Assembly (NCBI GenBank): GCA_963773635.1 | Contig: CAVZBW010000007.1 | Coordinates: forward strand, 964-64,963 | DNA length: 64,000 nt | Source: an uncultured Actinomycetes bacterium | GTDB taxonomy: Bacteria; Actinomycetota; Acidimicrobiia; Acidimicrobiales; RAAP-2 | Reading direction: 5' to 3' | In this document: piece by piece, positions 6,264-44,048 of the stretch | Layout: each line of letters starts with the position of its first letter | How positions within the stretch are numbered: the first letter of the stretch is position 1 | Made by a program: the position numbers and the translations under genes | Notes under the pieces: model-generated | Told to the model about the DNA's origin: nothing | The model's input: the letters and a program-made list of their open reading frames with translations, nothing else | The model's database searches: none

Positions 6264-9200
6264 ATGGCCATCGCACCGCAACAGCTCGGTATCGGGCTCC
6301 GGCGACACTTCACCCGTGAGGGAGTGCACCCCTACGACGAGGTTCGCTGGGAGCGGCGCGACGCCCGGATCACCAACTTCCGGGACGGCACGGTGGCCTT
6401 CGAACAGCTCGGCGTGGAGGTGCCCGAGAGCTGGAGCGTCAACGCCACCAACATCCTGGCGCAAAAGTACTTCCGCGGCACCCTCGGGACGTCCGAGCGC
6501 GAGTGGTCGCTCAAGCAGGTCGCCGACCGCGTCGTCGACACCCTGACCGCCTGGGGCGTCAAGGACGGCTACTTCGTCGACGAGCGCGAGGCGGCCATCT
6601 TCCGGGACGAGCTCAAGTACCTGATCGTGCACCAGAGGGCGGCGTTCAACTCGCCCGTGTGGTTCAACATCGGCGTCGCCGGCGTGCCGCAGCAAGGCGC
6701 GGCCTGCCAGCCGTACGACGCACTGGTGAACACGCCGGATGGGCTTGTTCCGATCGGGCGCCTTGTCGAAGAGAATGCGGTCGGACGCAAGGTGTTGGAC
6801 GCGCACGGGGTGACGCGGATCCTTGCGACGAAGCACAACGGCAAGAAGGAAGTCCTCCGTATCCACACCAAGGCAGGCCACCAGTTGGATGTCACTCCGG
6901 ATCATCTGGTCTGGCGGCCCTCCGACGAGCGCTACGGAGCCTTCGTCCCGGCTTCCGAGCTTCGGCCCGGTGACAAGGTGACGTGGCATCGAAGCGAAGC
7001 ACAGGGTGGGAAGGAGTTCTCGCGCCGGTCGGTTGCCGAGGCGGCGCTCGCCGGGTGGCTGCAATCCGACGGATTCGTCGGTCAGTACGAAGGGACCAAC
7101 CGATCGTTGACCATCGAAGCGATGACGGTGACGGCGTCTGAGCGGGAATGGGTCTTGGCCGCCATCGATCGGGTGTTTCCCGAGGTGCACCGGCATGAGC
7201 GGAGCGTGGAGACCCTCGACTCCTCCCTGGATTGTCGCCGAATCCGGCTGTACGGGAAAGAGCTCACGAACTTTGTGGAGCACTGGGGTCTTCGATCCCG
7301 GGGCGCCGAGATGACGGTTCCTGAGCACCTCTTCACCGCAGCATTACCCGAGGTCGTGGCCTACCTCCGCAGCCTCTTCCAGGCTGAGGGTTCCGTCACC
7401 CTCAAAGAGCGCGGCGCCGTGATCGCGGTCGACATGGTCTCGGAAGGGATCATCCGTGGGGCGCAAGCGCTGCTGACGAGGCTCGGGATCTTCTCCCGTG
7501 TTCGGTTCAAGGCGGATCGCCGTGAGAATCGAAGGGGATGTTGGTCGCTCGCTATCCGCACGCTGGCGGATCGGCGCACCTTTGCCGACGAGATCGGGTT
7601 CGTCGACGAGAGAAAGGCCTGCAAGCTCGAGGACAGTCTCGACATTCCTGGACAGCCGAGTCGATCTTCCAAGCGGCTCGAGATCGAGCGGATCGAGTCC
7701 CTGGGCGAACTCGATGTCTACGACATCCAGACGGAGAGTGGCGAGTACCTGAGCAACAGCCTGCGGGTCCACAACTGTTTCATCCTCGCCGTCGACGACT
7801 CGATGGACTCCATCCTCAACTGGTACCGGGAGGAGGGCGTCATCTTCAAGGGCGGCTCCGGCGCCGGCGTGAACCTCTCGCGCATCCGCTCGTCGTTCGA
7901 GGGGCTCAAGGGCGGCGGGACGGCGTCGGGCCCCGTGAGCTTCATGCGGGGTGCGGACGCCTCGGCCGGCACCATCAAGAGTGGTGGCAAGACCCGGCGA
8001 GCCGCCAAGATGGTGATCCTCGACGCCGACCATCCCGACGTGGAGGACTTCATCTGGTGCAAGGCCCGGGAGGAGCGCAAGGCTCGCGTGCTGCGCGACG
8101 CGGGGTTCGACATGGACCTCGACGGGCTCGACAGCAATTCGCTCCAATACCAGAACGCCAACAACTCCGTCCGGGTCACCGACGAGTTCATGCAGGCCGT
8201 GGTCGACGATCGCGAGTGGGAGCTGACCGCTCGGACCACCGGAGAGGTGGTGCGGACCCTCCCGGCGCGGCAGCTGTTCCGGGAGATCGCGGAGGCCGCC
8301 TGGGAGTGCGCCGATCCGGGCCTCCAGTTCGACACCACCATCAACCGCTGGCACACGGCGCCCAACACCGGCCGGATCAACGGCAGCAACCCGTGTTCAG
8401 AGTATCTGCATATAGATAACTCCGCCTGCAATCTCGCGAGCCTCAACCTGCTCACCTTTCTGGACGAGGACGGGGCGTTCGACGTCGACGGGTTCAAGGC
8501 CGCCGTCGAGGTGGTGTTCACCGGTCAGGAGATCCTCGTTGGCAACGCCGACTACCCGACAGAGCCCATCGCGGAGAACTCGCGACGCTTCCGCCAGCTT
8601 GGTCTCGGCTACGCCAACCTCGGTGCGTTGCTGATGGCCCAGGGCCTGCCGTACGACTCGGACGGCGGCCGTGCGTGGGCGGGTGCCCTCACGGCGCTCC
8701 TCACGGGCCACGCCTATGCCACTTCGGCCCGCACCGCGGCCCGGATGGGGCCCTTCGCCGGGTTCCACGAGAACGCCGAGCCGATGATCAACGTGCTTCG
8801 GATGCACCAGGCGGAGGCGGCCAAGATCGACGAGGAGCTCGTCCCGCCCGAGCTGCTCTCGTCCGCCCAGGAGTCCTGGGACCTGGCCGTCGAGCTCGGC
8901 GAGCAGTACGGCGTGCGCAACTCCCAGGCCAGCGTGCTCGCGCCGACCGGGACCATCGGCCTGCTCATGGACTGCGACACCACGGGGGTCGAGCCGGACC
9001 TGGGCCTGGTCAAGACCAAGAAGCTGGTGGGTGGCGGGACGATGTCGATCGTCAACCAGACCGTCCCCCGGGCGCTGCGCCGGCTCGGCTACGGACCCGA
9101 CCAGGTCGATGAGATCGTCTCTCACATCGACGAGCACAATTCGATCGTCGGGGCCCCCCACCTTCGGCCGGAGCACCTCGCGGTCTTTGCCTGCTCGATG

Positions 9201-10196
9201 GGTGACAACACCATCCACTACCAGGGTCACATCCGCATGCTCGGCGCCGTCCAGCCCTTCATCAGCGGCGCCGTGTCCAAGACGTGCAACGTGCCCGAGG
9301 ACGTGACCGTCGAGGACGTCGAGCAGCTGCACATCGACGCCTGGCATCTCGGCATCAAGGCGGTCGCCATCTACCGGGACAACTGCAAGGTGGCCCAGCC
9401 GTTGGCGACGACCAAATCGGAGGCTGCCACGGTGGCGAGCCTGGCCGCCGAGGGCCTCGAGGCCCAGCCCCGGATCGGGGAGCTCGAGGCGAGGGTCAGG
9501 GAGCTCGAGGCCGCCTTGGAGGAGCGGGCGCGGACGAGCCAGCCGGTCGTGGTCGGTGCGGTGCGAGAGCGCCTACCCCGTAGACGGCGGTCCAACACCT
9601 TCGCCTTCCGCGTGGCCGACTGCGAGGGCTACGTCCACGTCGGCGAGTACGAGGACGGCAGGCCCGGCGAGGTCTTCATCAAGGTCTCCAAGCAGGGCTC
9701 GACGTTGGCTGGCATCATGGACGCCTTCTCCATCTCCGTCAGCCTGGGCCTCCAGCACCAGGTGCCCCTCGCCACCTACGTGCGCAAGTACAGCAACATG
9801 CGCTTCGAGCCGGCGGGTATCACCGACGATCCGGATCTGCGGATAGCCACGAGCCTGGTCGACTACATCTTCCGCCGGCTGGCGCTCGACTACCTCAAGC
9901 CGGAGGAGCGCCAGGAGCTGGGGGTGCTCTCGACCGCAGAGCGTGCGCAACCGACGCTCCCGGGTGTCGAGGAGGTGGCGACACCCAGCCACGGCGTCGT
10001 CGAGCCCGGGTCGCCGACGCCGGTCGTCGAGTACACGATCGGCGGCGCCACCGCCGAGTCGGCGGTGGCCGGCGCGCCGTTGTCCCGTGCGGAGCAGCGC
10101 GACGCCCCGTTCTGTTACAGCTGCGGCAACGTGATGCAGCGGGCCGGATCGTGCTACGTGTGCGCCAGCTGCGGGACGACGAGCGGCTGCTCGTAG
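6264..10196 (+). CDS. nrdJ: adenosylcobalamin-dependent (class II) ribonucleotide reductase, interrupted by an intein
   Basis: 1310 aa. NSPVWFN, CFILAVDDSMDSI, NPCSEY and a C-terminal CxxC...CxxC zinc tail (CYSCGNVMQRAGSCYVCASCG). Extein length is about 953 aa once the intein is removed. Confidence 0.95.
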   Translation: MAIAPQQLGIGLRRHFTREGVHPYDEVRWERRDARITNFRDGTVAFEQLGVEVPESWSVNATNILAQKYFRGTLGTSEREWSLKQVADRVVDTLTAWGVKDGYFVDEREAAIFRDELKYLIVHQRAAFNSPVWFNIGVAGVPQQGAACQPYDALVNTPDGLVPIGRLVEENAVGRKVLDAHGVTRILATKHNGKKEVLRIHTKAGHQLDVTPDHLVWRPSDERYGAFVPASELRPGDKVTWHRSEAQGGKEFSRRSVAEAALAGWLQSDGFVGQYEGTNRSLTIEAMTVTASEREWVLAAIDRVFPEVHRHERSVETLDSSLDCRRIRLYGKELTNFVEHWGLRSRGAEMTVPEHLFTAALPEVVAYLRSLFQAEGSVTLKERGAVIAVDMVSEGIIRGAQALLTRLGIFSRVRFKADRRENRRGCWSLAIRTLADRRTFADEIGFVDERKACKLEDSLDIPGQPSRSSKRLEIERIESLGELDVYDIQTESGEYLSNSLRVHNCFILAVDDSMDSILNWYREEGVIFKGGSGAGVNLSRIRSSFEGLKGGGTASGPVSFMRGADASAGTIKSGGKTRRAAKMVILDADHPDVEDFIWCKAREERKARVLRDAGFDMDLDGLDSNSLQYQNANNSVRVTDEFMQAVVDDREWELTARTTGEVVRTLPARQLFREIAEAAWECADPGLQFDTTINRWHTAPNTGRINGSNPCSEYLHIDNSACNLASLNLLTFLDEDGAFDVDGFKAAVEVVFTGQEILVGNADYPTEPIAENSRRFRQLGLGYANLGALLMAQGLPYDSDGGRAWAGALTALLTGHAYATSARTAARMGPFAGFHENAEPMINVLRMHQAEAAKIDEELVPPELLSSAQESWDLAVELGEQYGVRNSQASVLAPTGTIGLLMDCDTTGVEPDLGLVKTKKLVGGGTMSIVNQTVPRALRRLGYGPDQVDEIVSHIDEHNSIVGAPHLRPEHLAVFACSMGDNTIHYQGHIRMLGAVQPFISGAVSKTCNVPEDVTVEDVEQLHIDAWHLGIKAVAIYRDNCKVAQPLATTKSEAATVASLAAEGLEAQPRIGELEARVRELEAALEERARTSQPVVVGAVRERLPRRRRSNTFAFRVADCEGYVHVGEYEDGRPGEVFIKVSKQGSTLAGIMDAFSISVSLGLQHQVPLATYVRKYSNMRFEPAGITDDPDLRIATSLVDYIFRRLALDYLKPEERQELGVLSTAERAQPTLPGVEEVATPSHGVVEPGSPTPVVEYTIGGATAESAVAGAPLSRAEQRDAPFCYSCGNVMQRAGSCYVCASCGTTSGCS
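6705..7775 (+). mobile_element. full-length intein with LAGLIDADG homing-endonuclease domain, inserted in nrdJ
   Basis: 357 aa. Starts at Cys (CQPYDALVNTPDG). Block B is TPDHLVW. LAGLIDADG-like blocks are LAGWLQSDGFVG and VAYLRSLFQAEGSV. Ends ...LRVHN, followed by the +1 Cys of CFILAV. Confidence 0.85.
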
Positions 10197-29532: not shown

Positions 29533-30216
29533 TCAGGGTGCGTTGGAGAGCGAGCCGATCCCGAGGCCGGAGCCCGTAGAGGGTTGCGGGACCTGGGCCA
29601 TGGGGTTGGGCCTCGGGGGGGCGATCCGCACGAGCGCATTGCGGTCGCGGTGGGAGAAGGGCTCGTCGGTGCCCTTGACCTGCAACATGGTGATCTCGTC
29701 GTAGGACCAGGCGTCGGGTCCCTGGATGGTCACGGTGGTCGTGAACGAGAGGGTGCGAAAGGCGTCCAGGAGGAAGGGATTGGAGCAGATCCCGAAGGTG
29801 TCGAGTCCCTCCCTGGCGGACAGCTCCAAGGTGGTGGCGTCGGGGTCGGCCGAGCCGGAGGCCAGCGCCACCTGCCCACGAGGGATGGCGATGGTCAGGA
29901 AGACCGTGTGCGTGGCCGGCTCCCAGAGCCAGTACCCGACCTGGTCGTGAAACGTCTCGGTCTCGCCCGGCTTGACGATGTGGCGCAGGTAGCGGAGTCC
30001 GTAGAGAAGTTGGGGACCGTTGGTCTGCGGATCGATGGGCTGGAGGTCGTAGTGCTCGACGAAGGAGTCGACCCCGACTCCCTCCTTGACGGGATGCTCG
30101 TCGGTGCCGGCCGCCCCTTCCCAGGTGCCCGCCAAGGGTCCGAGCGGGCCGAGGTTGGAGAGCGTGTCCGGATCGGCGTCGGGTTCGGTGAAGACGTCGG
30201 CCACCTCTGCGGTCAT
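29533..30216 (-). CDS. nitrobindin / THAP4-type heme-binding beta-barrel-like protein
   Basis: LGPLAGTWEG motif and GYWLWEP block resemble the DUF1794/heme-binding beta-barrel family. Assignment is by recollection only. Confidence 0.5.
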   Translation of the reverse strand: MTAEVADVFTEPDADPDTLSNLGPLGPLAGTWEGAAGTDEHPVKEGVGVDSFVEHYDLQPIDPQTNGPQLLYGLRYLRHIVKPGETETFHDQVGYWLWEPATHTVFLTIAIPRGQVALASGSADPDATTLELSAREGLDTFGICSNPFLLDAFRTLSFTTTVTIQGPDAWSYDEITMLQVKGTDEPFSHRDRNALVRIAPPRPNPMAQVPQPSTGSGLGIGSLSNAP

Positions 30217-34579: not shown

Positions 34580-35555
34580 TCAGATCAGGTCCAGCCCGTC
34601 CCGGGTCCTCGCCAGGTAGGTCACCATGAGGGCGAGCAGCGAGACGGCGACGATCCCGACCGACTCGAACATGGCGTAAAAGTCGAGGAATGTCCCGATC
34701 GGCGGGTTGCCGGGCGCGGCGCTGCGGAAGGTGATCAACGCGAAGAGCAGGGCGCCGAGAATCGCCAGGACCCTCGGGTCGAAGGGGCGTCGCCGGATGA
34801 TGATGGCGACCGTGATGCCGGCCGACACGAGGGCCAGGGACCAGTAGATCGCGATCATCGCCAGGACCCAGCCCTTGATCCGTGGGCTGCGCCAGACCTG
34901 CAGGGTCAAGATCCATGTTCCTTCGGGCTGGTGTTCTCCCTTGGCAGCCAGCTGCATCTGAGCCGCCGCGGAGAAGCCGGCCGCGACGTTGACCGCGTTG
35001 ACGTCGAAGGGCAGCAGTCGCCGGTCGCGCGTGTGGGGCCCGCTTGGCACGACGGTGTCGGTCCCACTCACGACCAGGACGCCGATTTGGAGCGCGTACG
35101 AGTCGAAGGGATAGTCGGCAATATCGCCACTGCGAAAGGAGACCCTGGTCGTCAACTCGGGTATGAGCTGGCCCGGCCGTACGACGATCGCCGGATTGGC
35201 GCCGAAATTGGAGAAGACCACCGCCCCCTCGGGGGGCAGGGTCGTCCCCGGAGCGGCGACGACTCGCGCTTGCACCGATCCCGCCGCCGCGTAGACGGAG
35301 TCGAGGGTGATCAACAGGTCGACGGCGGATTGCTTGTCGTTGACCGGGCGCTGCGAGAGGAACGGTTGGGTCTCCGTCGTGGCGTTCTGGGAAGGGATCC
35401 CGAGGTAGACGAACAAGCCGGCGGCCAGCAGGAGCAGCGCTGCTGCGACCAGGATCCACCGCGTGCCGGCGGTCGAAGCGCGGCGGTGAGCTCTTGGAGG
35501 TCCCTGGGGCGACCTCGCTCCGCTCGCCGCGGGGGCGGCCGCCGTGAATGCTCAT
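34580..35555 (-). CDS. DUF4436-like membrane protein; the N-terminal TM helix is reachable only through a 1-nt frame correction near 35463..35469
   Basis: The body (34580..35416) contains DYPFDSY and C-terminal TM helices. The expected N-terminal helix RWILVAAALLLLAAGLFVYLG is in frame but has no ATG/GTG/TTG start. ATG at 35555 is in the adjacent frame. Confidence 0.5.
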
Positions 35556-35565
35556 CGGTGCACGC

Positions 35566-35826
35566 TCAGGGGGTCTCGTCCACCTCGAGGAGGTCCACGC
35601 CCGAGAGGTCCACCCACGTGCGCCCCCGTCCGTCTCGCACGAGCCGCACCTGGACGCGGCCGCAATGGCGACATCGCGCCACGAGCCCCGGGCCCTCGGC
35701 GAAGACCACCCAGGTGGCGGCCGGCGCCTGGGTGCGACAGCCGGCGCACGTCGCCAGGGTGGCCGTGATCTCGAAAGAGAAGACGTCGGCGAGGGCGCCG
35801 GCGAGCACGTTGCCGTCGAGGCTCAT
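35566..35826 (-). CDS. DUF6510-like small four-Cys protein (86 aa)
   Basis: MSLDGNVLAGAL..., with CAGC (27-30) and CRHC (52-55). Its ATG overlaps the FNR stop (ATGA). Confidence 0.65.
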   Translation of the reverse strand: MSLDGNVLAGALADVFSFEITATLATCAGCRTQAPAATWVVFAEGPGLVARCRHCGRVQVRLVRDGRGRTWVDLSGVDLLEVDETP

Positions 35827-36581
35827 GATCCCCCTCCACTCGGTCCGAACCGCTCCGTCTTGACCCTGCTGGGCTCGTGGCCCAGCAGGACCAGGCCGTT
35901 CGCCGTGGCCTCGACGAAGGGCGTCGGACCGCAGACGAAGACGGCGCTCGCGCCCCTCTCGGCGAGGCGCACCTCCGCCAGCATCCTGGCGTCGATCCGA
36001 CGACGGTATCCCGCCCACTGCGGTGAGGCCTCCCGCGTGAGGGTGTAGACGGCGTCGAAGCCGTCGCCGGCGTGCGCCATCTCGGCCAGCTCGGCCCGGT
36101 AGAGCAGGTCCTGTTCTCGCCGAGCCGAATAGAGGAGCCGCATGCGGGTGCGGATGCCCCGCCGCCGCCGGTGCCGGGCCATGGACATCAGCGGCACGAC
36201 CCCCGACCCTCCTGCCACGAGCAGGACCGGAGCGGGGTCCGTGTCGTCCCAGACGAAGTAGCCGCCGACCGGTCCCCGAACCTCGAACTGATCGCCCGGC
36301 TCGGCGACCGTCGTCAGCCAGGGCGAGACCTCGCCATCGGGTATGCGCTCGACGGTCAGGGACACCGAGGGATCGTCCGGGGCCGAGGCGATGGAGTAGC
36401 TCCGCTCCGCCTGGTAGCCGTCGTCCGCCGTGAGCCGCACGTCGACATGCTGTCCGGGTCGGTGGGTGATCCGTTCCTCCGACTCAAGGGTCAGCGTCAC
36501 CGCCCGGTCGGTTTCCGGCGCCACGGAGCCGACGGTGACCACCCGCCAGGTCAGTCGCCCCAGTATCGCTGTTCGCGCCAC
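35823..36581 (-). CDS. FNR-like FAD/NAD(P)-binding oxidoreductase (ferredoxin-reductase type, no Fe-S domain)
   Basis: RSYSIAS (RxYS FAD motif) and LLVAGGSGVVPLMSM (NAD motif). 252 aa. Confidence 0.8.
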   Translation of the reverse strand: MARTAILGRLTWRVVTVGSVAPETDRAVTLTLESEERITHRPGQHVDVRLTADDGYQAERSYSIASAPDDPSVSLTVERIPDGEVSPWLTTVAEPGDQFEVRGPVGGYFVWDDTDPAPVLLVAGGSGVVPLMSMARHRRRRGIRTRMRLLYSARREQDLLYRAELAEMAHAGDGFDAVYTLTREASPQWAGYRRRIDARMLAEVRLAERGASAVFVCGPTPFVEATANGLVLLGHEPSRVKTERFGPSGGGS

Positions 36582-37168
36582 GGGTCTCCGTAGTTGTTGT
36601 AGCCGAGGCGCTCCCAGAACCCCGGCTCGTCACGCTCCACGAAGCGGAGGCCGCGGACCCACTTGGCGCTCTTCCAGAAATAGAGGTGCGGGACGAGGAG
36701 CCGAGCGGGTCCCCCGTGCTCGGGTTCCAGATCATGACCGTCATAGCCGGTGGCGATCCAGGCCTGACCGTCCGTGATGTCGGCGACCGGCAGGTTGGTC
36801 GTGTAGTCGCCCTCGGCAAAGGCGACCACATAGGCGGCCTCCGGCAGGATGCCTTCGAGGAGGACGTCGAGGCTGACCCCCTGCCAGCTCATGTCGAGCT
36901 TGGACCATTTGGTTACGCAGTGGATGTCGCACTTCACCGTCTCCTGGGGCAGAGCAAGCAACTCCTCCCAGTCCCAGCGCGCCAGCTGCCTCCCGTCGGG
37001 CCCGACCAGCCGGAAGTCCCAGCCGTCCGGGCGGCGGTGGGGGGTGGGTCCCGCGGAGAGGACCGGGAAGTCGCTGACCAGGTACTGCCCGGGCGGGACC
37101 CGGGAACGCTCGCCTCCGGCCCGCTTCCCCCGGAAGCCCCTCGTCACGATCCCGCGGACGCTACTCAT
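36551..37168 (-). CDS. molybdopterin-dependent oxidoreductase (sulfite-oxidase fold, YedY/MsrP-like, cytoplasmic)
   Basis: DIHCVTKWSKLDMSWQGVSL and HGGPARLLVPHLYFWKSAKW are typical SUOX-fold blocks. No signal peptide seen. Confidence 0.8.
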   Translation of the reverse strand: MSSVRGIVTRGFRGKRAGGERSRVPPGQYLVSDFPVLSAGPTPHRRPDGWDFRLVGPDGRQLARWDWEELLALPQETVKCDIHCVTKWSKLDMSWQGVSLDVLLEGILPEAAYVVAFAEGDYTTNLPVADITDGQAWIATGYDGHDLEPEHGGPARLLVPHLYFWKSAKWVRGLRFVERDEPGFWERLGYNNYGDPWREQRYWGD

Positions 37169-37325
37169 CGGCGAAACCCTCGGGGTTGTCCAGCTCGAGT
37201 CCGAGCTCGTGGAGCTCCTTGCGGTCGAGCAGCAGCTGCTCGTCCGGGCTCACCTCGTCGTCGTCGATGCCGTCGTCCACGAACTCCGCACCGTCGCCCA
37301 ACGACTCACGCCCAGGGGTGTCCAT
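37161..37325 (-). CDS. unannotated 54-aa acidic ORF, translationally coupled to the Mo-oxidoreductase
   Basis: Absent from the ORF track (below its size cutoff). ATG 37325 to TAG 37161. Translation: MDTPGRESLGDGAEFVDDGIDDDEVSPDEQLLLDRKELHELGLELDNPEGFADE. Nearly all codons end in G or C. Its stop overlaps the downstream ATG (GATGAGTAG). Confidence 0.45.
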   Translation of the reverse strand: MDTPGRESLGDGAEFVDDGIDDDEVSPDEQLLLDRKELHELGLELDNPEGFADE

Positions 37326-37426
37326 TGCGCATCGACCTCGTTTAGGGTGCGGTCCTCAGGGTGCGGCCCGAGGGGCCCGATCCTAACGGATAGGTCCCGG
37401 ACGGGACCGTCCGCCCGGGCCTTGCC

Positions 37427-39289
37427 GTGTTGTGGCCCACCCTCTGGTACATCAAGATCGCCATCGTGAGCGAGAAGGTCGCGGACGCCCAAGAACTGGC
37501 CGCGCAGGTGCGCCGATCCCTGGCCACACCCGAGGGTCGCAGGGATCCCTATCCCCTGTACCGGCGGCTGCGGGAGGTGGCCCCCGTCGCTCGGGCGGAG
37601 CCGGGAGTCTGGCTGGTCACCGGCTACTCTGCGGCGCGGTCGGTGTTGCGAGATCCGCGATTGGTGCGCGGCTACGACCGCACGCAAGAGCTGCTGCGGC
37701 CCGAGGGCCTGGACCGGCCGGCCACGGTCCTCGGCAGCGCAACGCTCCTCAACCTCGACGGACCCGCCCACACGCGCCTCCGCCGGCTCGTCTCCCGGTC
37801 GTTCCAGTTCTCGGCGACGGACGTCCTGCAGCCTCTGCTCGAGGCGATCACCAAGGAGCTGCTCGACGGTCTCGAGGACTCCGGAGGTGGCGATCTGGTC
37901 GAGACGTTTTGCGCGCCCTTGCCCCGGCGGGTGATCGCCGCCCGGCTCGGGGTCCCCCCGTCGGAAGCCCAGACCTTCGACGAGCATGCCCGGGCGGTGA
38001 CGGCGGTGCTCGAGATGGACGTCGGGGCCGAGGAACTGGCCAGGGCCGACCAGGCGGCGACGGCGCTAGAGGAGTACTTCACGGGGCTGCTCGAGTTCCG
38101 CCGCCGCCGGCCCGCTGACGATCTCATGAGCTCCCTCGCCCAGGGCGACGACGGACGGCACGGTCTCGTCGCGCTGCAGGTGACCGCCCTCGCCATCCAA
38201 CTGTTCTCGGCGGGGCTGGACAACGTGGCCAACCAGATCGGCAACGCGGTGATCGGCCTGTTGGCGGAGCCCTGGCAGACCGAGCTGCTACGTCACCGAC
38301 CCGCGCGTTGCACCGGGCTCCCCGACGAGCTGTTCCGTCACGACGCGGCGGTCCAGCTCACCGTCCGCACGGCGGAACAGGAGGTGGGCGTCGGGGGGGT
38401 GACGATTGGTGCCGGCGAGACCGTGATCGTGTTGCTCGGAGCGGCCAATCGGGACCCCCGACGCCATTCCAACCCGGACCATCTCGACGTCGAACGAACC
38501 GACTCGCGTCCGCTGAGCTTCGGTGGAGGGGTCCATCACTGCGTAGGCTTTCACCTGGCCCGCGCCGAGGTCGAGACCGCGCTGCGCGGTTTGTTCGGAC
38601 GCTTCGCGGTCGTCGAACCGCTCCAGCCGGCTCGCTTCCGGGACCGGTTGGGTGTGCGCGGCCCGAGCTCGCTCGTGGTGCACGTAGCGACCTCCGGAGG
38701 GCGACGCGTCGCCCCGGCCGAGCGGGTGGGGAGCCTCGCCTCCCTGGTCGGCGGCGAACCGGGCCGCGCGACGGCCGACGAATTGGGTGTTCGACCGGTC
38801 GGAGGAGAGGACCACTCGTGGAGGGCCGCCTATCGCGCCACCCTCGAGGCCAGCCCGCGTCCGGGAGGAGCGGAGCGAGACGATCTTGTCGATCTGTTTT
38901 CGCGCGTCCGCTTCTTTGCCGGATGCACGCGGGCGGAGCTCGCCGACCTCGTGTCGACGGCGTACCCGATCGCTTTCGAGGCGGGCGAGGCGATCTGCAG
39001 CGAGGGGACGTCGTCCGGTGAGTGCTGGGTCATCGCCGAGGGCGTGGCCCACGTGTCGATCGAGGGCGAGGTGGCGGCACGCATCCACGCCGACAGCGTG
39101 GTGGGCGAGCGCGGACTGCTGCTCAACCGTCCCCGGGCAGCAACCGTCACGGCCGACGAGCACGTGATCGCCTACGCGGTGTCTCGCGACCGCCTCGTGA
39201 GGCTGATCAACGCCAGCCCGACGGCGCGCGAGGGCATGCTGGCCGACCTCCGTCTCCGCTACGGAGAGGACCTGGGCGGCGACCCGTGA
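37427..39289 (+). CDS. cytochrome P450 fused to a C-terminal cyclic-nucleotide-binding domain
   Basis: P450 parts: ExxR (ELFR), heme loop FGGGVHHCVG, end of fold about aa 420. CNB domain at aa ~485-600 with phosphate-binding cassette GERGLLLNRPRAATVTA. Start is 37427 or GTG 37466. Confidence 0.8.
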   Translation: MLWPTLWYIKIAIVSEKVADAQELAAQVRRSLATPEGRRDPYPLYRRLREVAPVARAEPGVWLVTGYSAARSVLRDPRLVRGYDRTQELLRPEGLDRPATVLGSATLLNLDGPAHTRLRRLVSRSFQFSATDVLQPLLEAITKELLDGLEDSGGGDLVETFCAPLPRRVIAARLGVPPSEAQTFDEHARAVTAVLEMDVGAEELARADQAATALEEYFTGLLEFRRRRPADDLMSSLAQGDDGRHGLVALQVTALAIQLFSAGLDNVANQIGNAVIGLLAEPWQTELLRHRPARCTGLPDELFRHDAAVQLTVRTAEQEVGVGGVTIGAGETVIVLLGAANRDPRRHSNPDHLDVERTDSRPLSFGGGVHHCVGFHLARAEVETALRGLFGRFAVVEPLQPARFRDRLGVRGPSSLVVHVATSGGRRVAPAERVGSLASLVGGEPGRATADELGVRPVGGEDHSWRAAYRATLEASPRPGGAERDDLVDLFSRVRFFAGCTRAELADLVSTAYPIAFEAGEAICSEGTSSGECWVIAEGVAHVSIEGEVAARIHADSVVGERGLLLNRPRAATVTADEHVIAYAVSRDRLVRLINASPTAREGMLADLRLRYGEDLGGDP

Positions 39290-40020: not shown

Positions 40021-40900
40021 ATGACGGTCGCCTTCGCCCTCCTCGCGGCGCTCGGTAACGCGGTCAACGTCATCACCCAGCACATCGCCAGCACGAGCGA
40101 CCCGCAGCGGTCCACGGGCTGGCGACTGGTCGTCTATCTGTTCAAGAACCCGTTGTGGCTCCTCGGATGGGTGGCGCTCCTCGGTGCCTTCGTCTTCCAG
40201 GCGCTGGCCCTGCACGCCGGGCAGCTCTCGGTGGTCCAGACCCTGCTCATCACCGAGCTGGTCTTCGCGCTCTTGCTGCGGCGCATCTGGATCCGGCAGG
40301 CCATCAGCGCCTCGGCGTGGGCCTCCGCCGCGCTCGACCTCGGCGGCCGTCGCCGTCTTCCTCACCGTGGCCGAGCCTCGAGGCGGCCATCTCACGCCGA
40401 CCTCGGGCGCCTGGCTCTCCTCGATCCTCGGGTGCGGCCTGGCGGCGGCGGTCGCCGGACTGTTGGCCTTGCGGGGCCCGCCCGCCCGTCGGGCGGCGCT
40501 GTTGGCCACCTCCGCGGGGATGGTCTGGGCCCTCGAGGCCACCTTCATCAAGTCCATGACGGACACGCTGGTGAGCGACGGCATCGGCGGCTCCCTGGCA
40601 CGCTGGCCCATCTACGCGGTGGCGGTCGGCGGGGTCGTGGGCACCCTCCTCGTCCAGGCTGCCCTCCATGTCGGACCGCTCCGGGCGTCCCAGCCGTTCT
40701 TGGTGATCGTTGATCCGGTGGTCTCGATCTTCCTGAGCGTCCATCTGTTTGACGAGTACTTCACCGGCGGGGTGGCGGACCTGCTGATTGGCTCGGTCGC
40801 CTTCGTCGTCATGTGCGTAGGCGTGGTCCTGCTGACGCGGACGGTCCCAGAGGACGTCCAAGGACCCGCGGCCGCCGTTCAGCCGACGAGCTCGGGGTGA
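40021..40900 (+). pseudogene. DMT/EamA-like membrane protein with a +1 frame break at about 40347
   Basis: The N-terminal half is in the ORF 39952 frame (…AWASAALDLGG). The hydrophobic C-terminal half is in the ORF 40184 frame (VAVFLTVAEPRGGH…). Deleting one C from ggcggCCgtc joins them. Confidence 0.65.
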
Positions 40901-42612
40901 CGCTGCAAGGCCGCCCGGGCGGCGATCCGTCCCGCCTCGACGGCCTCGTTCATCTGTCCGAAATTCAGGAGACCCACGCGTGTCACGTCGGGCTCGATCA
41001 CCGCGGCCAGCCGGGGCAGGTCCGAGAGCGGCCGGGCCGACGCCGCCAGGTCGATGCTGCGGATCAGCGTGTCCTGGATCGAAGGAAGCTGCTCGTCGGT
41101 ACCGCCGATGAGCCGGCGGACGACGGCCGGGGGCTGGACCGGTAGGAGTCCGTAGCCCCGGCGGGGGATGAACGCCCGCCGGAGGTCGACGCAGATCGCC
41201 TGCCCGTCGGCGTCGGCGACCATGACGTCCGCCGGCAGGTTGTTGAGCAGCCCGCCGTCCACCAGGATGCGGTCCCCGTCCTTGACGGGGGGGAGGAGGC
41301 CCGGTATCGACATCGAGGCGCGCACCGCGCGCCACAGCGATCCGCGGCGATGCACGATCTCCTTGCCGGTGATCAGGTCGGCCGAAATGGAAAAGAATCC
41401 CTTGGGCAGCTCCTCGATCAGCGTGTCGCCCACGACGTCCGTCCTGAGCCGCTCGATGCGCTCGCCCTTGATGAGGGCGACCGCGGGGATGGTGTAGTCG
41501 GCGAGCGGGTTGCCGTGGGCAAAGAGGTGCTTTGCCTGCTCGAGGGCTTCCTCGGGCGACATGCCCATGGCGAATGCGGCAGACGCGATGGCGCCCGCGC
41601 TGGCGCCGCCGAAGCGGTCCAGCGTGACACCGGCCTTGACGAGCTCGCTGTAGACCCCGAAGTGCGCCAGACCCCGGGCCCCGCCGCCCGACATCACGAG
41701 GCCGAGGGAGCGCCCGGCCAGGCGACGGGCGAGGGGTGCCAGGTCGGCCGCCGTGGGCCGGGCGCCGACGTAGTGGTGGGACAACGGCTCCAGCGTGCTC
41801 CACCACTCCGTCGAAGTCTCCTGGTGGGTCACGACCAGGTCGCAGCGTTTGCCCGGGGCCGGGAGGTGCTCTCCTTCGGGCCCCTCCTGTCCGACGAGGA
41901 AGGCGAGCCGGTCTGCCTGGTCGAGCACGTAGTCCCGCCAGGCTGCGCTGGAGCCATGGTCGACGACCATGAGCACCCAGTCGTTGGCCGCTTCTGCTCG
42001 ATCCACGAGCTCCCCGTAGGCCCGGCTGAGCTCCTCCCGGGTGGCCTGCTCGCGGTGGTCCCCCTCTTCGAGGGAGATCGTCTCCGCCCTGCCGTAGGGC
42101 CGGAGCGATTCCCCCAGGGCCCGCGCGATCCGGGGGGCCGAGATGCCGCGGCGGGTGGAGACGATGCCGATGATGCCGTTGCGCCGGATCTCCTGCGCGG
42201 GGCGGGACTGGCGGAGGAGCTGCGCGAGGACGCGCAGGACGTGCCTCTGGATGCCCCGATGCCGGTCCAAGAGCTCGGTGAACGAGGTGTCGGAGATGGC
42301 CCAGAGCTGGCTGTCGCGGACCGCCCGGACTCCGGCGGAGCGCGCCTCGCCGGCGATCACCCCGAATTCACCGATCCATTCCCCGGGCCCGACGTCGCGC
42401 AGGACGGCATCGTGCGCCTCGTCCACGGCCTCCAGGCGACCCGACACCACGATGAAAAACGCAGTGGCCTCGTCGCCGGTGTGGAACAGCCAGTCGCCGG
42501 CCGACACCTGATGGTCGGTCATCAGCCCGGCCATTTCCTCCAGCTCCGACGCGTTGAGACTGGCAAAGAGCGCCGTGCGGCCGAGGGCCGTGAGCTTGCT
42601 CTGGTTCATCAT
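40879..42612 (-). CDS. cyclic-nucleotide-binding domain / patatin-like phospholipase (NTE-like)
   Basis: ATG at 42612. CNB cassette IGEFGVIAGEARSAGVRAV. Patatin motifs MSGGGARG and GASAG, plus a DGG catalytic Asp motif. Confidence 0.85.
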   Translation of the reverse strand: MMNQSKLTALGRTALFASLNASELEEMAGLMTDHQVSAGDWLFHTGDEATAFFIVVSGRLEAVDEAHDAVLRDVGPGEWIGEFGVIAGEARSAGVRAVRDSQLWAISDTSFTELLDRHRGIQRHVLRVLAQLLRQSRPAQEIRRNGIIGIVSTRRGISAPRIARALGESLRPYGRAETISLEEGDHREQATREELSRAYGELVDRAEAANDWVLMVVDHGSSAAWRDYVLDQADRLAFLVGQEGPEGEHLPAPGKRCDLVVTHQETSTEWWSTLEPLSHHYVGARPTAADLAPLARRLAGRSLGLVMSGGGARGLAHFGVYSELVKAGVTLDRFGGASAGAIASAAFAMGMSPEEALEQAKHLFAHGNPLADYTIPAVALIKGERIERLRTDVVGDTLIEELPKGFFSISADLITGKEIVHRRGSLWRAVRASMSIPGLLPPVKDGDRILVDGGLLNNLPADVMVADADGQAICVDLRRAFIPRRGYGLLPVQPPAVVRRLIGGTDEQLPSIQDTLIRSIDLAASARPLSDLPRLAAVIEPDVTRVGLLNFGQMNEAVEAGRIAARAALQRHPELVG

Positions 42613-42659
42613 CGCCCGGCTCCCCTCCAGATCGGCCGAACAATAGTGCAGAGGGGTCC

Positions 42660-44048
42660 TTACGCCAGCGGCCCGACCGGAGGTCCGTCCCCTCCGGGAT
42701 GTGGCCGCTTGCGGCCGAGCCGCGAGGACCGCGGCGCCTCCAGGGCGCCGCGGTTGGAGAGCCATCGCGTGAGCGGCGCAGGCATCTCGGCGGGCCGATC
42801 GCCCCAGTCGTAGACCTCGCAGGTCCGGGCGGCGAGATCGTGGAGCGCCCGCCGATCGCGCCGCACGAGGGCCATCAACAGGCCGAGACCGAACAGGAGG
42901 AAGCTCACGGGAAACACGAGCACGCGCACCAGCGCCTGGCGCTGGGTGATCGTCGAGCCCTCGCTCGACACGATGCGCAGGCCGCCGATGGCCTTGCCGA
43001 CGGTGCGGCCCGTCAGGGCGAGCCCGGCCCAGAGGTAGACGAACCACCAGGCGAAGAGGGCAATCGTCCACCAGAGCCCGTTGTTCCGGACGACGTGGTA
43101 TCCCGAGAGGAGCTCGACGATGTACGACACGATGGCGCTGCCGAGGGCAAAGCTCCCAAAGACGACGCCGGTGTCGATGGCGAACGCCGTCAGCCGGCTG
43201 GCGGGACCCGCGTAGCGGCCGCTGACGCCTCCGGGCCCCAGTGCTGCGGCCTCCGAGACGAGCTGCGGTGGTCCGGGCTGCGGCGGGTCCCCTCGGCGGA
43301 ATCGGTCGAGGACCCTCATGACCACGACGTCGAGGCCCACGACCTGGCGGCGGACCAGGTCGAGGAGGGACGTGAGGAGTCCGCCGGTGCTGCGGGTCAC
43401 GACCGAGCCGAGCCGGATCCGGTCGACCACGGCGTTGATGTCGAGTCGATCGACCAGCTCGTCCACGTCGATACGCGCGATGAGCGCGTTGACGTCGACC
43501 CGCCGGAGCAGGGCGTCCGGATCGATCTGCTCGAGCAGGGCGTTGAGGTCTATCCCCCGGAGGACCTCTTCGATCCCGACCCGGGCCACCAGTCGACCGA
43601 CGTCCACCCGGTCGAGCAGCCCGTCGGCGTTGACCCGGTCGAGCAGGCGGTCCACGTCCACCCGATCGAGCAGGCGGTCCACGTCCACCCGGTCGAGCAG
43701 GCGGTCCACGTCCACCCGGTCGAGCAGCCGGTCCACCTCGATCCGATCGAGCAGATGGTCGACGTCCACCCGGTCGAGCAGATCGTCGGGATTCACCTTC
43801 GAGATCAGCTCGTCGACGTCGACCCGTTGCATGACCTCGTCGATGTCGACCCGGCTCAAGGCCTCGTTGAGGTCCACCGCGTCCACCAGGACCGGCATCA
43901 CGGCGTCGGCGACGGAGGTGACGGGCTGCACAAACGCTCGACGCAGCAGGTTGGGACGGGCCGGAGAGTGCCCGTCGTGGTTGCGGTTGTCCTCCACGCC
44001 CCCCCGAGCGGCGCGGTCCTCCGCAGAGGGCCGACCCGAATCGCTCAT
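42660..44048 (-). CDS. RDD-family membrane protein with an N-terminal array of 18 nonapeptide repeats
   Basis: C-terminal RDD-like TM domain (RLTAFAIDTGVVF ... GRTVGKAIGGLRIV ... HDLAARTCEV). Repeats such as VDVDRLLDR cover aa ~74-235. Alternative start at 44096. Confidence 0.75.
   Translation of the reverse strand: MSDSGRPSAEDRAARGGVEDNRNHDGHSPARPNLLRRAFVQPVTSVADAVMPVLVDAVDLNEALSRVDIDEVMQRVDVDELISKVNPDDLLDRVDVDHLLDRIEVDRLLDRVDVDRLLDRVDVDRLLDRVDVDRLLDRVNADGLLDRVDVGRLVARVGIEEVLRGIDLNALLEQIDPDALLRRVDVNALIARIDVDELVDRLDINAVVDRIRLGSVVTRSTGGLLTSLLDLVRRQVVGLDVVVMRVLDRFRRGDPPQPGPPQLVSEAAALGPGGVSGRYAGPASRLTAFAIDTGVVFGSFALGSAIVSYIVELLSGYHVVRNNGLWWTIALFAWWFVYLWAGLALTGRTVGKAIGGLRIVSSEGSTITQRQALVRVLVFPVSFLLFGLGLLMALVRRDRRALHDLAARTCEVYDWGDRPAEMPAPLTRWLSNRGALEAPRSSRLGRKRPHPGGDGPPVGPLA
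43392..43877 (-). repeat. 27-nt tandem coding repeat array (18 units, three central units nearly identical)
   Basis: Read directly: ggtcgagcaggcggtccacgtccaccc recurs at 27-nt spacing around 43640..43730. Flanking units are degenerate. All are in frame with the RDD ORF. Confidence 0.9.

What the first reader, a model, noticed from the sequence alone, without database searches (positions are those of the whole stretch)
37427..39289. Cytochrome P450 fused in frame to a C-terminal cyclic-nucleotide-binding domain
One 620-aa ORF holds a complete P450 fold: ExxR as ELFR, heme loop FGGGVHHCVG, and a fold end near LVVHV at about aa 420. A roughly 60-aa Arg/Gly/Pro-rich linker follows. The ORF then ends in a canonical CNB domain with an intact phosphate-binding cassette (GERGLLLNRPRAATVTA). 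CNB domains normally partner with HTH, kinase, channel or patatin modules. I know of no characterised P450 gated by a CNB domain, so this could be a monooxygenase allosterically controlled by cAMP or cGMP. The I-helix oxygen-activation motif reads AGLDNV rather than the usual AGxxT(T/S). The conserved Thr is replaced by Asn, which suggests atypical chemistry.
Basis: partly seen in the sequence, partly recalled or inferred. Interest (0 to 1): 0.7.

Follow-up and report, generated by a model that had tools for sequence, protein, structure and literature searches.

The report
P450 enzyme fused to cAMP-sensor domain
One gene really does encode a cytochrome P450 oxidising enzyme joined to a cyclic-nucleotide (cAMP-type) sensor domain; the same fusion occurs in over a hundred uncultured soil and water bacteria, has never been studied, and may be the first P450 switched directly by a second messenger.

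Summary
A single ORF carries a complete CYP107-like P450 and a C-terminal cyclic-nucleotide-binding (CNB) domain; the likely start is GTG 37466, giving 607 aa. Both domains score above Pfam gathering cut-offs.

It is not an indel artefact. 119 of the top 120 database homologues (40-89% identity, about 600 aa, several phyla) have the same two-domain architecture. The two halves co-diverge (r=0.82), which indicates one old fusion.

The phosphate-binding cassette keeps the cNMP-contacting Gly-Glu and Arg-x-Ala-Thr (Arg in 123/124) and aligns best to PKA RIalpha. It lacks the canonical beta2-beta3 glycine and carries an unexplained near-invariant Cys triad.

The Thr-to-Asn I-helix (AGLDNV) is real but limited to a small subfamily (8/124). 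The rest have canonical AGFETTTN. The solved hydroxylase CYP107X1 has Asn at the same site, so "atypical chemistry" is only weakly supported.

No neighbour, ferredoxin or reductase is conserved across 11 contexts; cAMP-related genes lie nearby in four. No paper describing this architecture was found.

Best reading: a P450 regulated post-translationally by cAMP, analogous to mycobacterial Pat. Substrate, ligand and coupling surface are untested, and AlphaFold's interdomain confidence did not reproduce (pTM 0.84 against 0.70).

The parts
37466..39289 (+). Coding sequence of the P450-CNB fusion protein (607 aa plus stop), using the most likely start, GTG 37466.
   Evidence: ORF. Start supported by DNA conservation with L084 and by the N-termini of relatives. 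Coding-frame GC3 holds throughout.
37427..37465 (+). In-frame 5' extension of the longest ORF; probably untranslated leader or promoter DNA. It contains the conserved block CTCTGGTACATCAAGATCGCCATC.
   Evidence: GTG 37427 is CTG in L084 and is followed by a 2-nt indel. The block just upstream of 37466 is conserved as DNA.
37466..38695 (+). Cytochrome P450 domain (aa 1-410), CYP107-like class I fold.
   Evidence: PF00067. NCBIfam partial hits at 1e-47. PDB sequence hits DmlH, CYP107X1 and EryF at E about 1e-60. Foldseek TM (target) about 0.9 to BioI, CalO2 and DmlH.
38210..38245 (+). I-helix oxygen-activation motif AGLDNVANQIGN. Asp-Asn replaces the family's Glu-Thr.
   Evidence: Eight of 124 family members have the [DE]N variant. 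CYP107X1 has AGYENT at the aligned position.
38327..38338 (+). K-helix ExxR motif (ELFR).
   Evidence: Glu and Arg are invariant in 124 sequences.
38519..38548 (+). Heme-ligand loop FGGGVHHCVG (Cys359 is the proximal thiolate). The HHCVGF form is the signature of the Asn subfamily.
   Evidence: Cys present in 123/124. HHCVG occurs in exactly the 8 Asn-variant members.
38696..38791 (+). Variable Gly/Arg/Pro/Ala-rich linker (aa 411-442), predicted disordered.
   Evidence: pLDDT below 50 for residues 415-437. Linker length varies from about 12 to 60 residues across the family.
38792..38848 (+). Conserved pre-CNB helix motif RPxx..D..WRxx[YFL]Rxx.E (aa 443-461), the candidate coupling element.
   Evidence: R443, P444, D449, W452, R453 and R457 are at least 90% conserved. 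Predicted helix 449-462.
38849..39265 (+). Cyclic-nucleotide-binding domain: N-terminal helices, 8-stranded beta-barrel and B/C helices (aa 462-600).
   Evidence: PF00027. PKA RIalpha CNB-A/B at E 5e-19, and Pat at 5e-7. AlphaFold secondary structure.
39104..39154 (+). Phosphate-binding cassette GERGLLLNRPRAATVTA (Gly547-Glu548 ... Arg557-Ala-Ala-Thr560).
   Evidence: GE in 124/124, Arg in 123/124, Thr/Ser in 121/124. Aligns residue for residue with the PKA cassette GEIALLMNRPRAATVVA.
38924..39025 (+). Span containing the three near-invariant CNB cysteines: Cys487 (38924-38926), Cys511 (38996-38998) and Cys520 (39023-39025).
   Evidence: Present in 120, 108 and 114 of 124 members; all three together in 100/124. 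They are absent from the aligned PKA RIalpha CNB-A/B sequences; that they are atypical of CNB domains in general is from memory. Their role is unexplained.

Best explanation
The gene encodes one polypeptide in which a soluble, class-I-type (CYP107-like) heme-thiolate P450 is followed by a flexible linker, a conserved helix and a PKA-type cyclic-nucleotide-binding domain. It belongs to an old, vertically inherited and so far unstudied family found in Actinomycetota, Acidimicrobiia, Myxococcota/Deltaproteobacteria, Binatia and Eisenbacteria.

The most likely mechanism has three steps. cAMP (RAAT-type cassette in this protein) binds the cassette through Glu548, Arg557 and Thr560. The N-terminal helices (including the conserved WR helix) and the C-helix lid then rearrange. 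This changes P450 turnover, either by opening substrate access or by unmasking the ferredoxin-docking face. The analogy is the way cAMP relieves autoinhibition in mycobacterial Pat. Electrons would come from an unlinked ferredoxin and ferredoxin reductase.

Shown here: the fusion, its conservation, the catalytic P450 motifs and the ligand-contact residues. Inferred: ligand identity, allosteric coupling, its direction and the substrate. The substrate may be a conserved lipid or acyl-type metabolite, because the gene lies in no biosynthetic cluster and the P450 part is well conserved across phyla.
For: - Both domains score above Pfam cut-offs in one chain.
- 119/120 top homologues have the same architecture, at 40-89% identity and a median of 607 aa.
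- Pairwise identities of the P450 and CNB halves co-vary: r=0.82, with 0/500 Mantel permutations reaching it.
- 78 stand-alone P450 relatives show no split form, and short CNB-only database entries are fragments of fusions.
- The heme Cys loop, ExxR and C-helix His/Arg are conserved.
- Cassette Gly-Glu is 124/124 and Arg is 123/124; the best PDB match is the PKA RIalpha CNB domains.
- The AlphaFold models are confident within each domain (pLDDT 84.8 and 90.7).
- cAMP-signalling genes lie within 8 kb in 4 of 11 contexts: CNB-patatin in the window, alpha/beta-hydrolase-cyclase in L001 and L088, and a Crp-type regulator plus a stand-alone CNB protein in L090.
- Precedent exists for a cAMP-gated enzyme in actinobacteria: Pat (PMC8556138).
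Against: - No ligand-binding or activity data exist.
- The PKA Gly169-equivalent, which co-evolves with the cassette Arg in canonical cAMP sensors (PMC2246266), is Ala or Ser here, with Gly in only 1/124.
- The cassette has Arg/Lys-Gly-Pro/Leu where the canonical motif has [LIV]-Ala-Leu.
- Interdomain packing is not reproducibly predicted: pTM 0.84 for the window protein but 0.70 for P0030.
- No cyclase, ferredoxin or reductase is consistently linked.
- Nearby cAMP genes could be coincidence, because (from general knowledge, not measured here) these phyla tend to encode many cyclases and CNB proteins.
Confidence: 0.55

Rival explanations
1. The CNB-fold module is a sensor, but not of cAMP or cGMP. 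It might bind another nucleotide or nucleoside (as Pycsar effectors and trypanosome PKA do). Alternatively it might act as a thiol/redox or metal-dependent switch through the conserved Cys487/Cys511/Cys520 triad at the hinge between the N-terminal helices and the beta2-beta3 loop.
For: - A near-invariant Cys triad plus His566 that the aligned PKA CNB domains lack.
- Non-canonical cassette positions (Arg/Lys-Gly-Pro) and loss of the Gly169 equivalent.
- CNB folds are known to have been re-used for heme, chlorophenols (PMC2246266) and nucleosides (PMC10959531, abstract listed).
- The domain also resembles the CNB part of Pycsar effectors at E about 1e-9 to 1e-11.
Against: - Every residue that contacts the cyclic phosphate and ribose in PKA (Gly-Glu, Arg, Ala-Thr) is retained at 97-100%. 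Families that switched ligand typically lose the Arg.
- The best solved matches are true cAMP-binding domains.
- By barrel topology (my inference) His566 lies at the opposite end from Cys511 and Cys520. The three Cys occupy positions that are hydrophobic (Leu, Ile, Phe) in the aligned PKA sequence, so they may simply be buried.
Confidence: 0.2
2. The CNB module has no regulatory effect on catalysis. It serves as a structural, oligomerisation or partner-recruitment or localisation module, with cNMP binding vestigial or irrelevant.
For: - The replicate model gives a pTM consistent with freely tethered domains.
- The linker is long and variable, about 12 to 60 aa.
- Interdomain covariation analysis gave no interpretable contacts.
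Against: - The cassette ligand-contact residues are under strong purifying selection across phyla, which is hard to explain for a vestigial site.
- The pre-CNB WR helix is among the most conserved segments of the protein.
- The halves co-diverge tightly.
Confidence: 0.15
3. The heme domain is not a catalyst. It would be a heme-based gas or redox sensor, or a P450-derived non-catalytic partner like the DesVIII/EryCII glycosyltransferase activators, working together with the CNB domain as a dual-input signalling protein.
For: - The best NCBIfam partial hit is the P450-derived glycosyltransferase-activator model, at 163 bits and far below its 343-bit cut-off.
- The Asn subfamily lacks the catalytic Thr.
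- No redox partner is linked.
Against: - The Cys ligand, ExxR and, in 116/124 members, the Glu-Thr acid-alcohol pair are all retained. From memory, the activator proteins have lost the Cys.
- There is no output domain, and no glycosyltransferase is nearby.
Confidence: 0.05
4. Assembly or sequencing artefact: an indel removed a stop and merged two adjacent genes.
For: Two close relatives in public MAGs (L084, L092) carry frameshifts in this gene, so errors do occur in this lineage's assemblies.
Against: - 119/120 homologues from independent samples and phyla are fused.
- The alignment with L084 and L092 is collinear over all 1824 nt, with no intervening stop or intergenic DNA. Their indels lie within the domains, and neighbouring genes are fragmented too.
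- Coding-frame GC3 is continuous.
Confidence: 0.01

Closest known systems
Mycobacterial cAMP-regulated protein lysine acetyltransferase Pat (Rv0998 / MSMEG_5458; PDB 4AVA-C, 4OLL)
   Same: An actinobacterial enzyme with a CNB domain covalently fused to a catalytic domain. cAMP binding causes a large rearrangement that relieves autoinhibition (PMC8556138). Pat's CNB domain is detectably similar to this one (E 5e-7; NCBIfam Pat model at 3e-11).
   Different: The catalytic domain is a GNAT, not a P450. In Pat the CNB is N-terminal, here it is C-terminal. The extra WR helix and the Cys triad are specific to the P450 family. No ligand or activity data exist here.
PKA regulatory subunit RIalpha CNB-A/CNB-B domains (PDB 1RGS, 1NE4)
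   Same: The best sequence match to the sensor domain (E 5e-19). The phosphate-binding cassette aligns residue for residue, including Gly-Glu and Arg-Ala-Ala-Thr.
   Different: PKA R subunits regulate a separate kinase subunit in trans and have tandem CNB domains. Here there is a single CNB fused in cis. The Gly169 equivalent is Ala or Ser, and the cassette has Arg-Gly-Leu/Pro instead of Leu-Ala-Leu.
CYP107-type bacterial class I P450s (EryF/CYP107A1, CYP107X1, DmlH, BioI/CYP107H1, Vdh, PikC)
   Same: Same fold and motifs: E about 1e-60 by sequence, TM (target) about 0.9, 29-37% identity. CYP107X1 shares the Asn at the I-helix 'Thr' position. From memory (a lead, not tested here), the glycopeptide cross-linking P450 OxyB also has Asn there.
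   Different: All of these are stand-alone proteins of about 400 aa. None has a sensor domain, and no solved chain covers both domains. Identity is below the 40% convention for a shared CYP family.
Self-sufficient P450 fusions (CYP102A1/P450 BM3, CYP116B PFOR-type)
   Same: A P450 fused in one chain to a functionally coupled partner domain.
   Different: Those partners are flavin or Fe-S reductases that deliver electrons. Here the partner is a small-molecule sensor, and no reductase, flavodoxin or ferredoxin domain is detected.
CNB-effector fusions: CNB-patatin (NTE-like; a copy lies at 40879-43071 in this window) and Pycsar CNB-TIR/TM effectors
   Same: The same design logic: a cyclic-nucleotide sensor fused to an effector enzyme.
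   Different: The effector chemistry is different. The two CNB domains in the window share only about 20% identity. No defence-system context or dedicated cyclase is adjacent.

Membership tests
Cytochrome P450 superfamily (PF00067) | Profile score above the curated cut-off, and a P450 fold. | tested here: met
   50.0 bits against a 22.8 cut-off. PDB hits at E about 1e-62. Foldseek TM (target) 0.88-0.92 to BioI, CalO2 and DmlH.
Cytochrome P450 superfamily (PF00067) | Heme-thiolate loop FxxGxxxCxG and K-helix ExxR. | tested here: met
   FGGGVHHCVG and ELFR are present. Cys in 123/124; Glu and Arg invariant.
Cytochrome P450 superfamily (PF00067) | I-helix acid-alcohol pair, (A/G)Gx(D/E)T(T/S). 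| tested here: not met
   The window has AGLDNV, with Asn and Val at the two alcohol positions. 116/124 family members keep Glu-Thr. This is not disqualifying for a P450: EryF has Ala and CYP107X1 has Asn.
Cytochrome P450 superfamily (PF00067) | Binds heme; Fe(II)-CO Soret band at 450 nm. | not testable with these tools
   Requires an expressed protein.
CYP107 family (nomenclature sense) | At least 40% amino-acid identity to a named family member. This convention is from my own knowledge. | tested here: not met
   The best solved CYP107-type relatives are 36-37% identical (DmlH, CYP107X1). This is probably a separate CYP family, and formal naming was not checked.
Cyclic-nucleotide-binding domain (PF00027), cNMP-competent | Profile score above the cut-off, with an 8-stranded barrel flanked by N-terminal and B/C helices. 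| tested here: met
   48.1 bits against a 27.5 cut-off. AlphaFold secondary structure shows the expected helices and strands in two family members.
Cyclic-nucleotide-binding domain (PF00027), cNMP-competent | Phosphate-binding cassette ligand contacts: Gly-Glu ... Arg-x-Ala-Thr/Ser. | tested here: met
   GE 124/124, Arg 123/124, Ala 124/124, Thr/Ser 121/124. Aligns to the PKA cassette.
Cyclic-nucleotide-binding domain (PF00027), cNMP-competent | The beta2-beta3 loop Gly (PKA Gly169) co-conserved with the cassette Arg as the allosteric relay (Kannan 2007). | tested here: not met
   The aligned position 517 is Ala in 71, Ser in 47 and Gly in 1. The criterion comes from PMC2246266. The register was derived by hand from the ungapped HMMER alignment.
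Cyclic-nucleotide-binding domain (PF00027), cNMP-competent | Measured binding of cAMP or cGMP. | not testable with these tools
   Needs ITC, DSF or fluorescence with purified protein.
Pat-type cAMP-gated enzyme (CNB fused to a catalytic domain, with autoinhibition) | CNB and catalytic domain in one chain, conserved as a unit. | tested here: met
   119/120 homologues are fused. The halves co-diverge at r=0.82.
Pat-type cAMP-gated enzyme (CNB fused to a catalytic domain, with autoinhibition) | A defined interdomain interface or autoinhibitory element. | tested here: inconclusive
   pTM is 0.84 for the window model but 0.70 for P0030. No coordinates or PAE were available. Covariation was uninformative. 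Seven fusion-specific P450 positions hint only weakly at the proximal side.
Pat-type cAMP-gated enzyme (CNB fused to a catalytic domain, with autoinhibition) | Ligand-dependent catalytic activity. | not testable with these tools
   Needs enzymology.
Self-sufficient P450-reductase fusions (CYP102, CYP116B) | A fused flavin or Fe-S electron-transfer domain. | tested here: not met
   Pfam and NCBIfam find only the P450 and cNMP_binding domains.
Pycsar/CBASS-type defence effector | An adjacent dedicated cyclase, with the effector matched over its whole length. | tested here: not met
   PADLOC hits cover only the CNB part. There is no cyclase in the 64-kb window.

The most novel reading that the evidence does not exclude
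This family would be the first cytochrome P450s whose catalysis is gated directly and post-translationally by a second messenger (cAMP). The gating would act through a dedicated C-terminal CNB module and a family-specific coupling helix, conserved across at least five bacterial phyla. The window's Asn/HHCVGF subfamily would have diverged to a different oxygen-activation chemistry. The conserved Cys triad could add a second (redox) input.
Probability: 0.45. Interest if true: 0.75.

Novelty: new variant of a known kind. Interest (0 to 1): 0.6.

Why it matters
To my knowledge, bacterial P450s are controlled mainly at the level of transcription and by availability of substrate and redox partner. 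No ligand-sensing regulatory domain fused to a P450 turned up in the literature held here. A cAMP-switched P450 would add a new effector class to bacterial cAMP signalling, which has many orphan cyclases and CNB proteins in actinobacteria. It would link second-messenger state directly to an oxidative, possibly lipid-modifying, reaction. It would also offer a natural template for small-molecule-switchable P450 biocatalysts. The family's breadth and the strong conservation of both halves suggest a conserved physiological role that is entirely unknown.

Tried and rejected
- **Exact-protein contig look-up for the window protein:** not on record.
- **Genome-collection scan for fused loci:** Only L004 and L005 were fused. 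It was still useful as a control set.
- **Conserved-neighbour search over 11 contexts:** no shared partner, ferredoxin or reductase. The FNR-like and Mo-pterin genes divergent from the window gene are kept only in close relatives, so I did not adopt them as redox partner.
- **Ferredoxin motif scan of all six frames of the window:** nothing.
- **Interdomain covariation (MI with APC, Neff about 84):** dominated by phylogenetic signal and uninterpretable.
- **AlphaFold replicate to confirm a fixed interface:** not reproduced, pTM 0.70.
- **Fold search for a two-domain precedent:** only the P450 part matched.
- **Split-gene hypothesis:** short CNB-only hits are fragments, and no separate CNB ORF lies near 78 stand-alone relatives.
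- **Local duplication of the neighbouring CNB-patatin sensor:** rejected, only 20% identity.
- **Defence-system reading:** rejected.
- **Rfam and promoter/terminator scans:** nothing.
- **A 3Cys-1His metal site:** considered unlikely on barrel topology, but not testable without coordinates.
- **Literature searches:** five queries looked for the architecture itself and one for Thr-to-Asn I-helix precedents. None found a paper on a P450-CNB fusion.
Full report
**Observation.** The window is about 70% GC, actinomycete-like DNA.
- Pfam finds PF00067 (p450, 50.0 bits, cut-off 22.8) and PF00027 (cNMP_binding, 48.1 bits, cut-off 27.5) in the same chain.
- NCBIfam gives strong partial matches to several bacterial P450 models (up to 1e-47). 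For the C-terminus it matches the cAMP domain of mycobacterial Pat.
- Against solved structures, the N-terminal 415 aa match DmlH, CYP107X1 and EryF at E about 1e-60 to 1e-62. The C-terminal 180 aa match the PKA RIalpha CNB domains at 5e-19, and the phosphate-binding cassettes superimpose: GERGLLLNRPRAATVTA against GEIALLMNRPRAATVVA.
- Third-position GC stays high (0.86, 0.76, 0.87) through the P450, linker and CNB segments.
- All quoted motifs sit at the expected places.

**Start codon and linker.**
- The longest-ORF start (GTG 37427) is probably not used. In the syntenic relative L084 it is CTG and is followed by a 2-nt indel. The block CTCTGGTACATCA[A/T]GATCGC[C/G]ATC-GTG-AGCGAGA around 37466 is conserved, and close relatives differ in length and sequence upstream of 'AQELAAQV'. 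I therefore use 37466..39289 (607 aa).
- The '60-aa linker' splits into two parts. About 30 residues are variable and low-confidence (aa 411-442; pLDDT below 50 at 415-437). These are followed by a highly conserved helix motif, RPxx..D..WRxx[YFL]Rxx.E (aa 443-461).

**Is the fusion real?** Yes.
- A search of 5.8 billion clustered proteins returned 2732 hits at E<=1e-10. Of the best 120, 119 carry both Pfam domains (40-89% identity, about 600 aa). Named sources include Actinomycetota, Mycobacteriales, Acidimicrobiia, Deltaproteobacteria, Myxococcota, Candidatus Binatia and Candidatus Eisenbacteria MAGs. All are labelled only 'cytochrome P450'.
- In a 124-member alignment the median length is 607 aa.
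- Pairwise identities of the P450 half and the CNB half correlate at r=0.82, with 0/500 Mantel permutations reaching that value. This argues for one old fusion inherited as a unit.
- An exhaustive HMMER search with only the linker and CNB part found its close relatives (single-stretch hits at 37-70% identity) at the C-terminus of about 600-aa proteins or in short fragments. The fragments begin inside the P450 C-terminal strand, so they are broken fusions and not stand-alone genes.
- 78 stand-alone P450 relatives (33-42% identity) from GTDB genomes have no similar CNB ORF within 6 kb.
- The two close relatives that looked truncated are explained by frameshifts. L084 has five 1-2-nt indels in the gene. 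L092 has a single 1-nt insertion at codon 481, inside the CNB module. Both alignments are collinear over all 1824 nt, and both assemblies have fragmented neighbouring genes.

**P450 part.**
- The Cys-ligand loop, ExxR and C-helix His/Arg are conserved.
- The AlphaFold model (pLDDT 84.8) matches BioI, CalO2, DmlH, CYP107P2, StaP and EryF at TM (target) 0.82-0.92 and 29-37% identity. No solved chain covers both domains.
- It is a CYP107-like class I fold but lies below the 40% identity convention for that family.
- The I-helix AGLDNV is genuine but is not a family trait. 107/124 members have AGFETTTN. Only 8/124 have a [DE]N variant, and these eight are exactly the ones with the Cys loop FGGGVHHCVGF. 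They share eight signature positions, including L360V and A362F flanking the heme ligand. The window protein therefore belongs to a distinct subfamily with a remodelled heme environment.
- CYP107X1 (7WEX) has AGYENT, with Asn at the aligned position, and it 16alpha-hydroxylates progesterone (PMC11214959). EryF lacks the Thr altogether (PMC10741444). Asn alone does not therefore argue against monooxygenation. The window protein lacks a hydroxyl at both alcohol positions (Asn, Val), so altered proton delivery remains plausible.

**CNB part.**
- Ligand-contact residues are almost invariant: Gly547-Glu548 in 124/124, Arg557 in 123/124, Ala559 in 124/124, Thr/Ser560 in 121/124.
- The residue after the Arg is Ala (59), Ser (41) or Thr (21). 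The window has the PKA-like RAAT.
- There are three departures from the canonical sensor. The cassette reads VVGE[RK]G[PL], where the canonical motif is FGE[LIV]AL. The position aligned to PKA Gly169, which Kannan et al. found co-conserved with the cassette Arg as an allosteric relay (PMC2246266), is Ala or Ser here. Three cysteines (487, 511, 520) are near-invariant, together with His566.
- The Kannan census of CNB architectures lists no P450.
- PADLOC hits are only to the generic CNB part of Pycsar proteins.

**Context.**
- In the window, a divergent operon lies upstream: a 54-aa acidic ORF, a Mo-pterin oxidoreductase, an FNR-like reductase, DUF6510 and DUF4436. Downstream lie a beta-carbonic anhydrase, an unknown ORF and a CNB-patatin protein. 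This arrangement recurs only in the close relatives L084 and L092.
- Across 11 independent contexts no neighbour is conserved, and no ferredoxin or reductase is adjacent.
- The window contains no cyclase and no ferredoxin motif.
- cAMP-related genes lie within 8 kb in four contexts: CNB-patatin here, alpha/beta-hydrolase-cyclase in L001 and L088, and Crp plus a small CNB protein in L090. This is suggestive but could be chance in cyclase-rich phyla.
- Several neighbours are lipid or acyl-CoA enzymes: a desaturase, a thiolase, an acyl-CoA dehydrogenase, a carboxyltransferase and patatin. That is a weak hint about substrate class.

**Mechanism.**
- The best-supported model is a P450 whose activity is tuned by cAMP binding to the fused sensor, by analogy with Pat (PMC8556138). 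The conserved WR helix is the likely coupling element.
- I could not locate the interface. No coordinates or PAE are returned, and covariation was dominated by phylogeny.
- Seven positions are conserved in the fusion family but not in stand-alone relatives: G99, G142, D287, G294, T295, E370 and D393. They hint only weakly at the proximal side.
- The high pTM of the window model (0.84) was not reproduced for P0030, which gave pLDDT 90.7 and pTM 0.70, about what two independently placed domains would give.
- The fusion, its conservation and the ligand-contact residues are shown. Ligand identity, coupling and substrate are inferred.

**Novelty and verdict.**
- Five full-text searches for the architecture, plus the CNB census, found no description of a P450-CNB fusion.
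- The architecture is visible in sequence databases but is unnamed and uncharacterised.
- I rate it a new variant of known kinds (P450 enzyme plus CNB sensor). It is real and widespread, of clear interest to P450 and cAMP-signalling specialists, and has an untested mechanism.

Noticed in passing
window 38924-39025 (codons 487, 511, 520) and 39161-39163 (His566): Three near-invariant cysteines (present in 120, 108 and 114 of 124 members; all three together in 100) and a conserved His lie inside the CNB module. The aligned PKA CNB domains have hydrophobic residues at the three Cys positions. They could be a thiol/redox or metal site, or simply buried residues.
   Followed up: partly
window 40879-43071 (-): A second cyclic-nucleotide-binding protein, CNB fused to a patatin-like phospholipase, lies 1.6 kb downstream. 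Its CNB is only about 20% identical to the P450's. The long ORF overlaps the RDD-family gene, so its true start is probably later.
   Followed up: partly
window 34580-37325 (-): A divergent operon sits next to the P450 gene: a conserved 54-aa very acidic ORF (37161-37325), a Mo-pterin oxidoreductase (36551-37168), an FNR-like FAD/NAD reductase (35823-36581), a probable DUF6510 ORF and DUF4436. It is syntenic in L084 and L092 but not in distant family members. Its function is unknown, and it could be an electron source for the P450.
   Followed up: partly
window 37340-37465: The intergenic region has a repeated AGGGTGCGG motif, a near-palindrome CCTAACGGATAGG, and a conserved block CTCTGGTACATCAAGATCGCCATC immediately before the GTG start. 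All are shared with L084 despite surrounding indels. They may be promoter or operator elements. No sigma-70 consensus match was found.
   Followed up: partly
window 6264-10196 (+): A class II (B12-dependent) ribonucleotide reductase of 1310 aa is interrupted by an intein with a LAGLIDADG homing-endonuclease domain.
   Followed up: no
window 29533-30216 (-): A THAP4-like/nitrobindin-type heme-binding beta-barrel protein lies next to an AMP-binding (acyl-CoA synthetase-like) gene and a pyridine-nucleotide disulphide oxidoreductase.
   Followed up: no
L001 4680-6017 and L088 13373-14713: An alpha/beta-hydrolase fused to a class III nucleotide cyclase (LipJ-like architecture) lies 2-5 kb from the P450-CNB gene in two related family members. 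It is a candidate local cAMP source.
   Followed up: no
L088 5980-6906: A short catalase-related (PF00199) protein of 308 aa is encoded immediately upstream of, and on the same strand as, the P450-CNB gene in one family member. This pairs a second heme enzyme with the P450.
   Followed up: no
L084 9518-11341 and L092 3076-4879: Close relatives from the ENA MAG series ERZ250394xx/395xx carry multiple 1-2-nt indels in this gene and have fragmented neighbouring genes. This is typical of uncorrected long-read assemblies, so protein predictions from these records are unreliable.
   Followed up: yes
window 38519-38536; model residues 353-358 (and 355-359 in P0030): Both AlphaFold models give very low confidence (pLDDT below 50) specifically to the GGGVH part of the heme-ligand loop, although it is invariant in sequence. 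This is probably a consequence of modelling without heme, but it is unusual.
   Followed up: no
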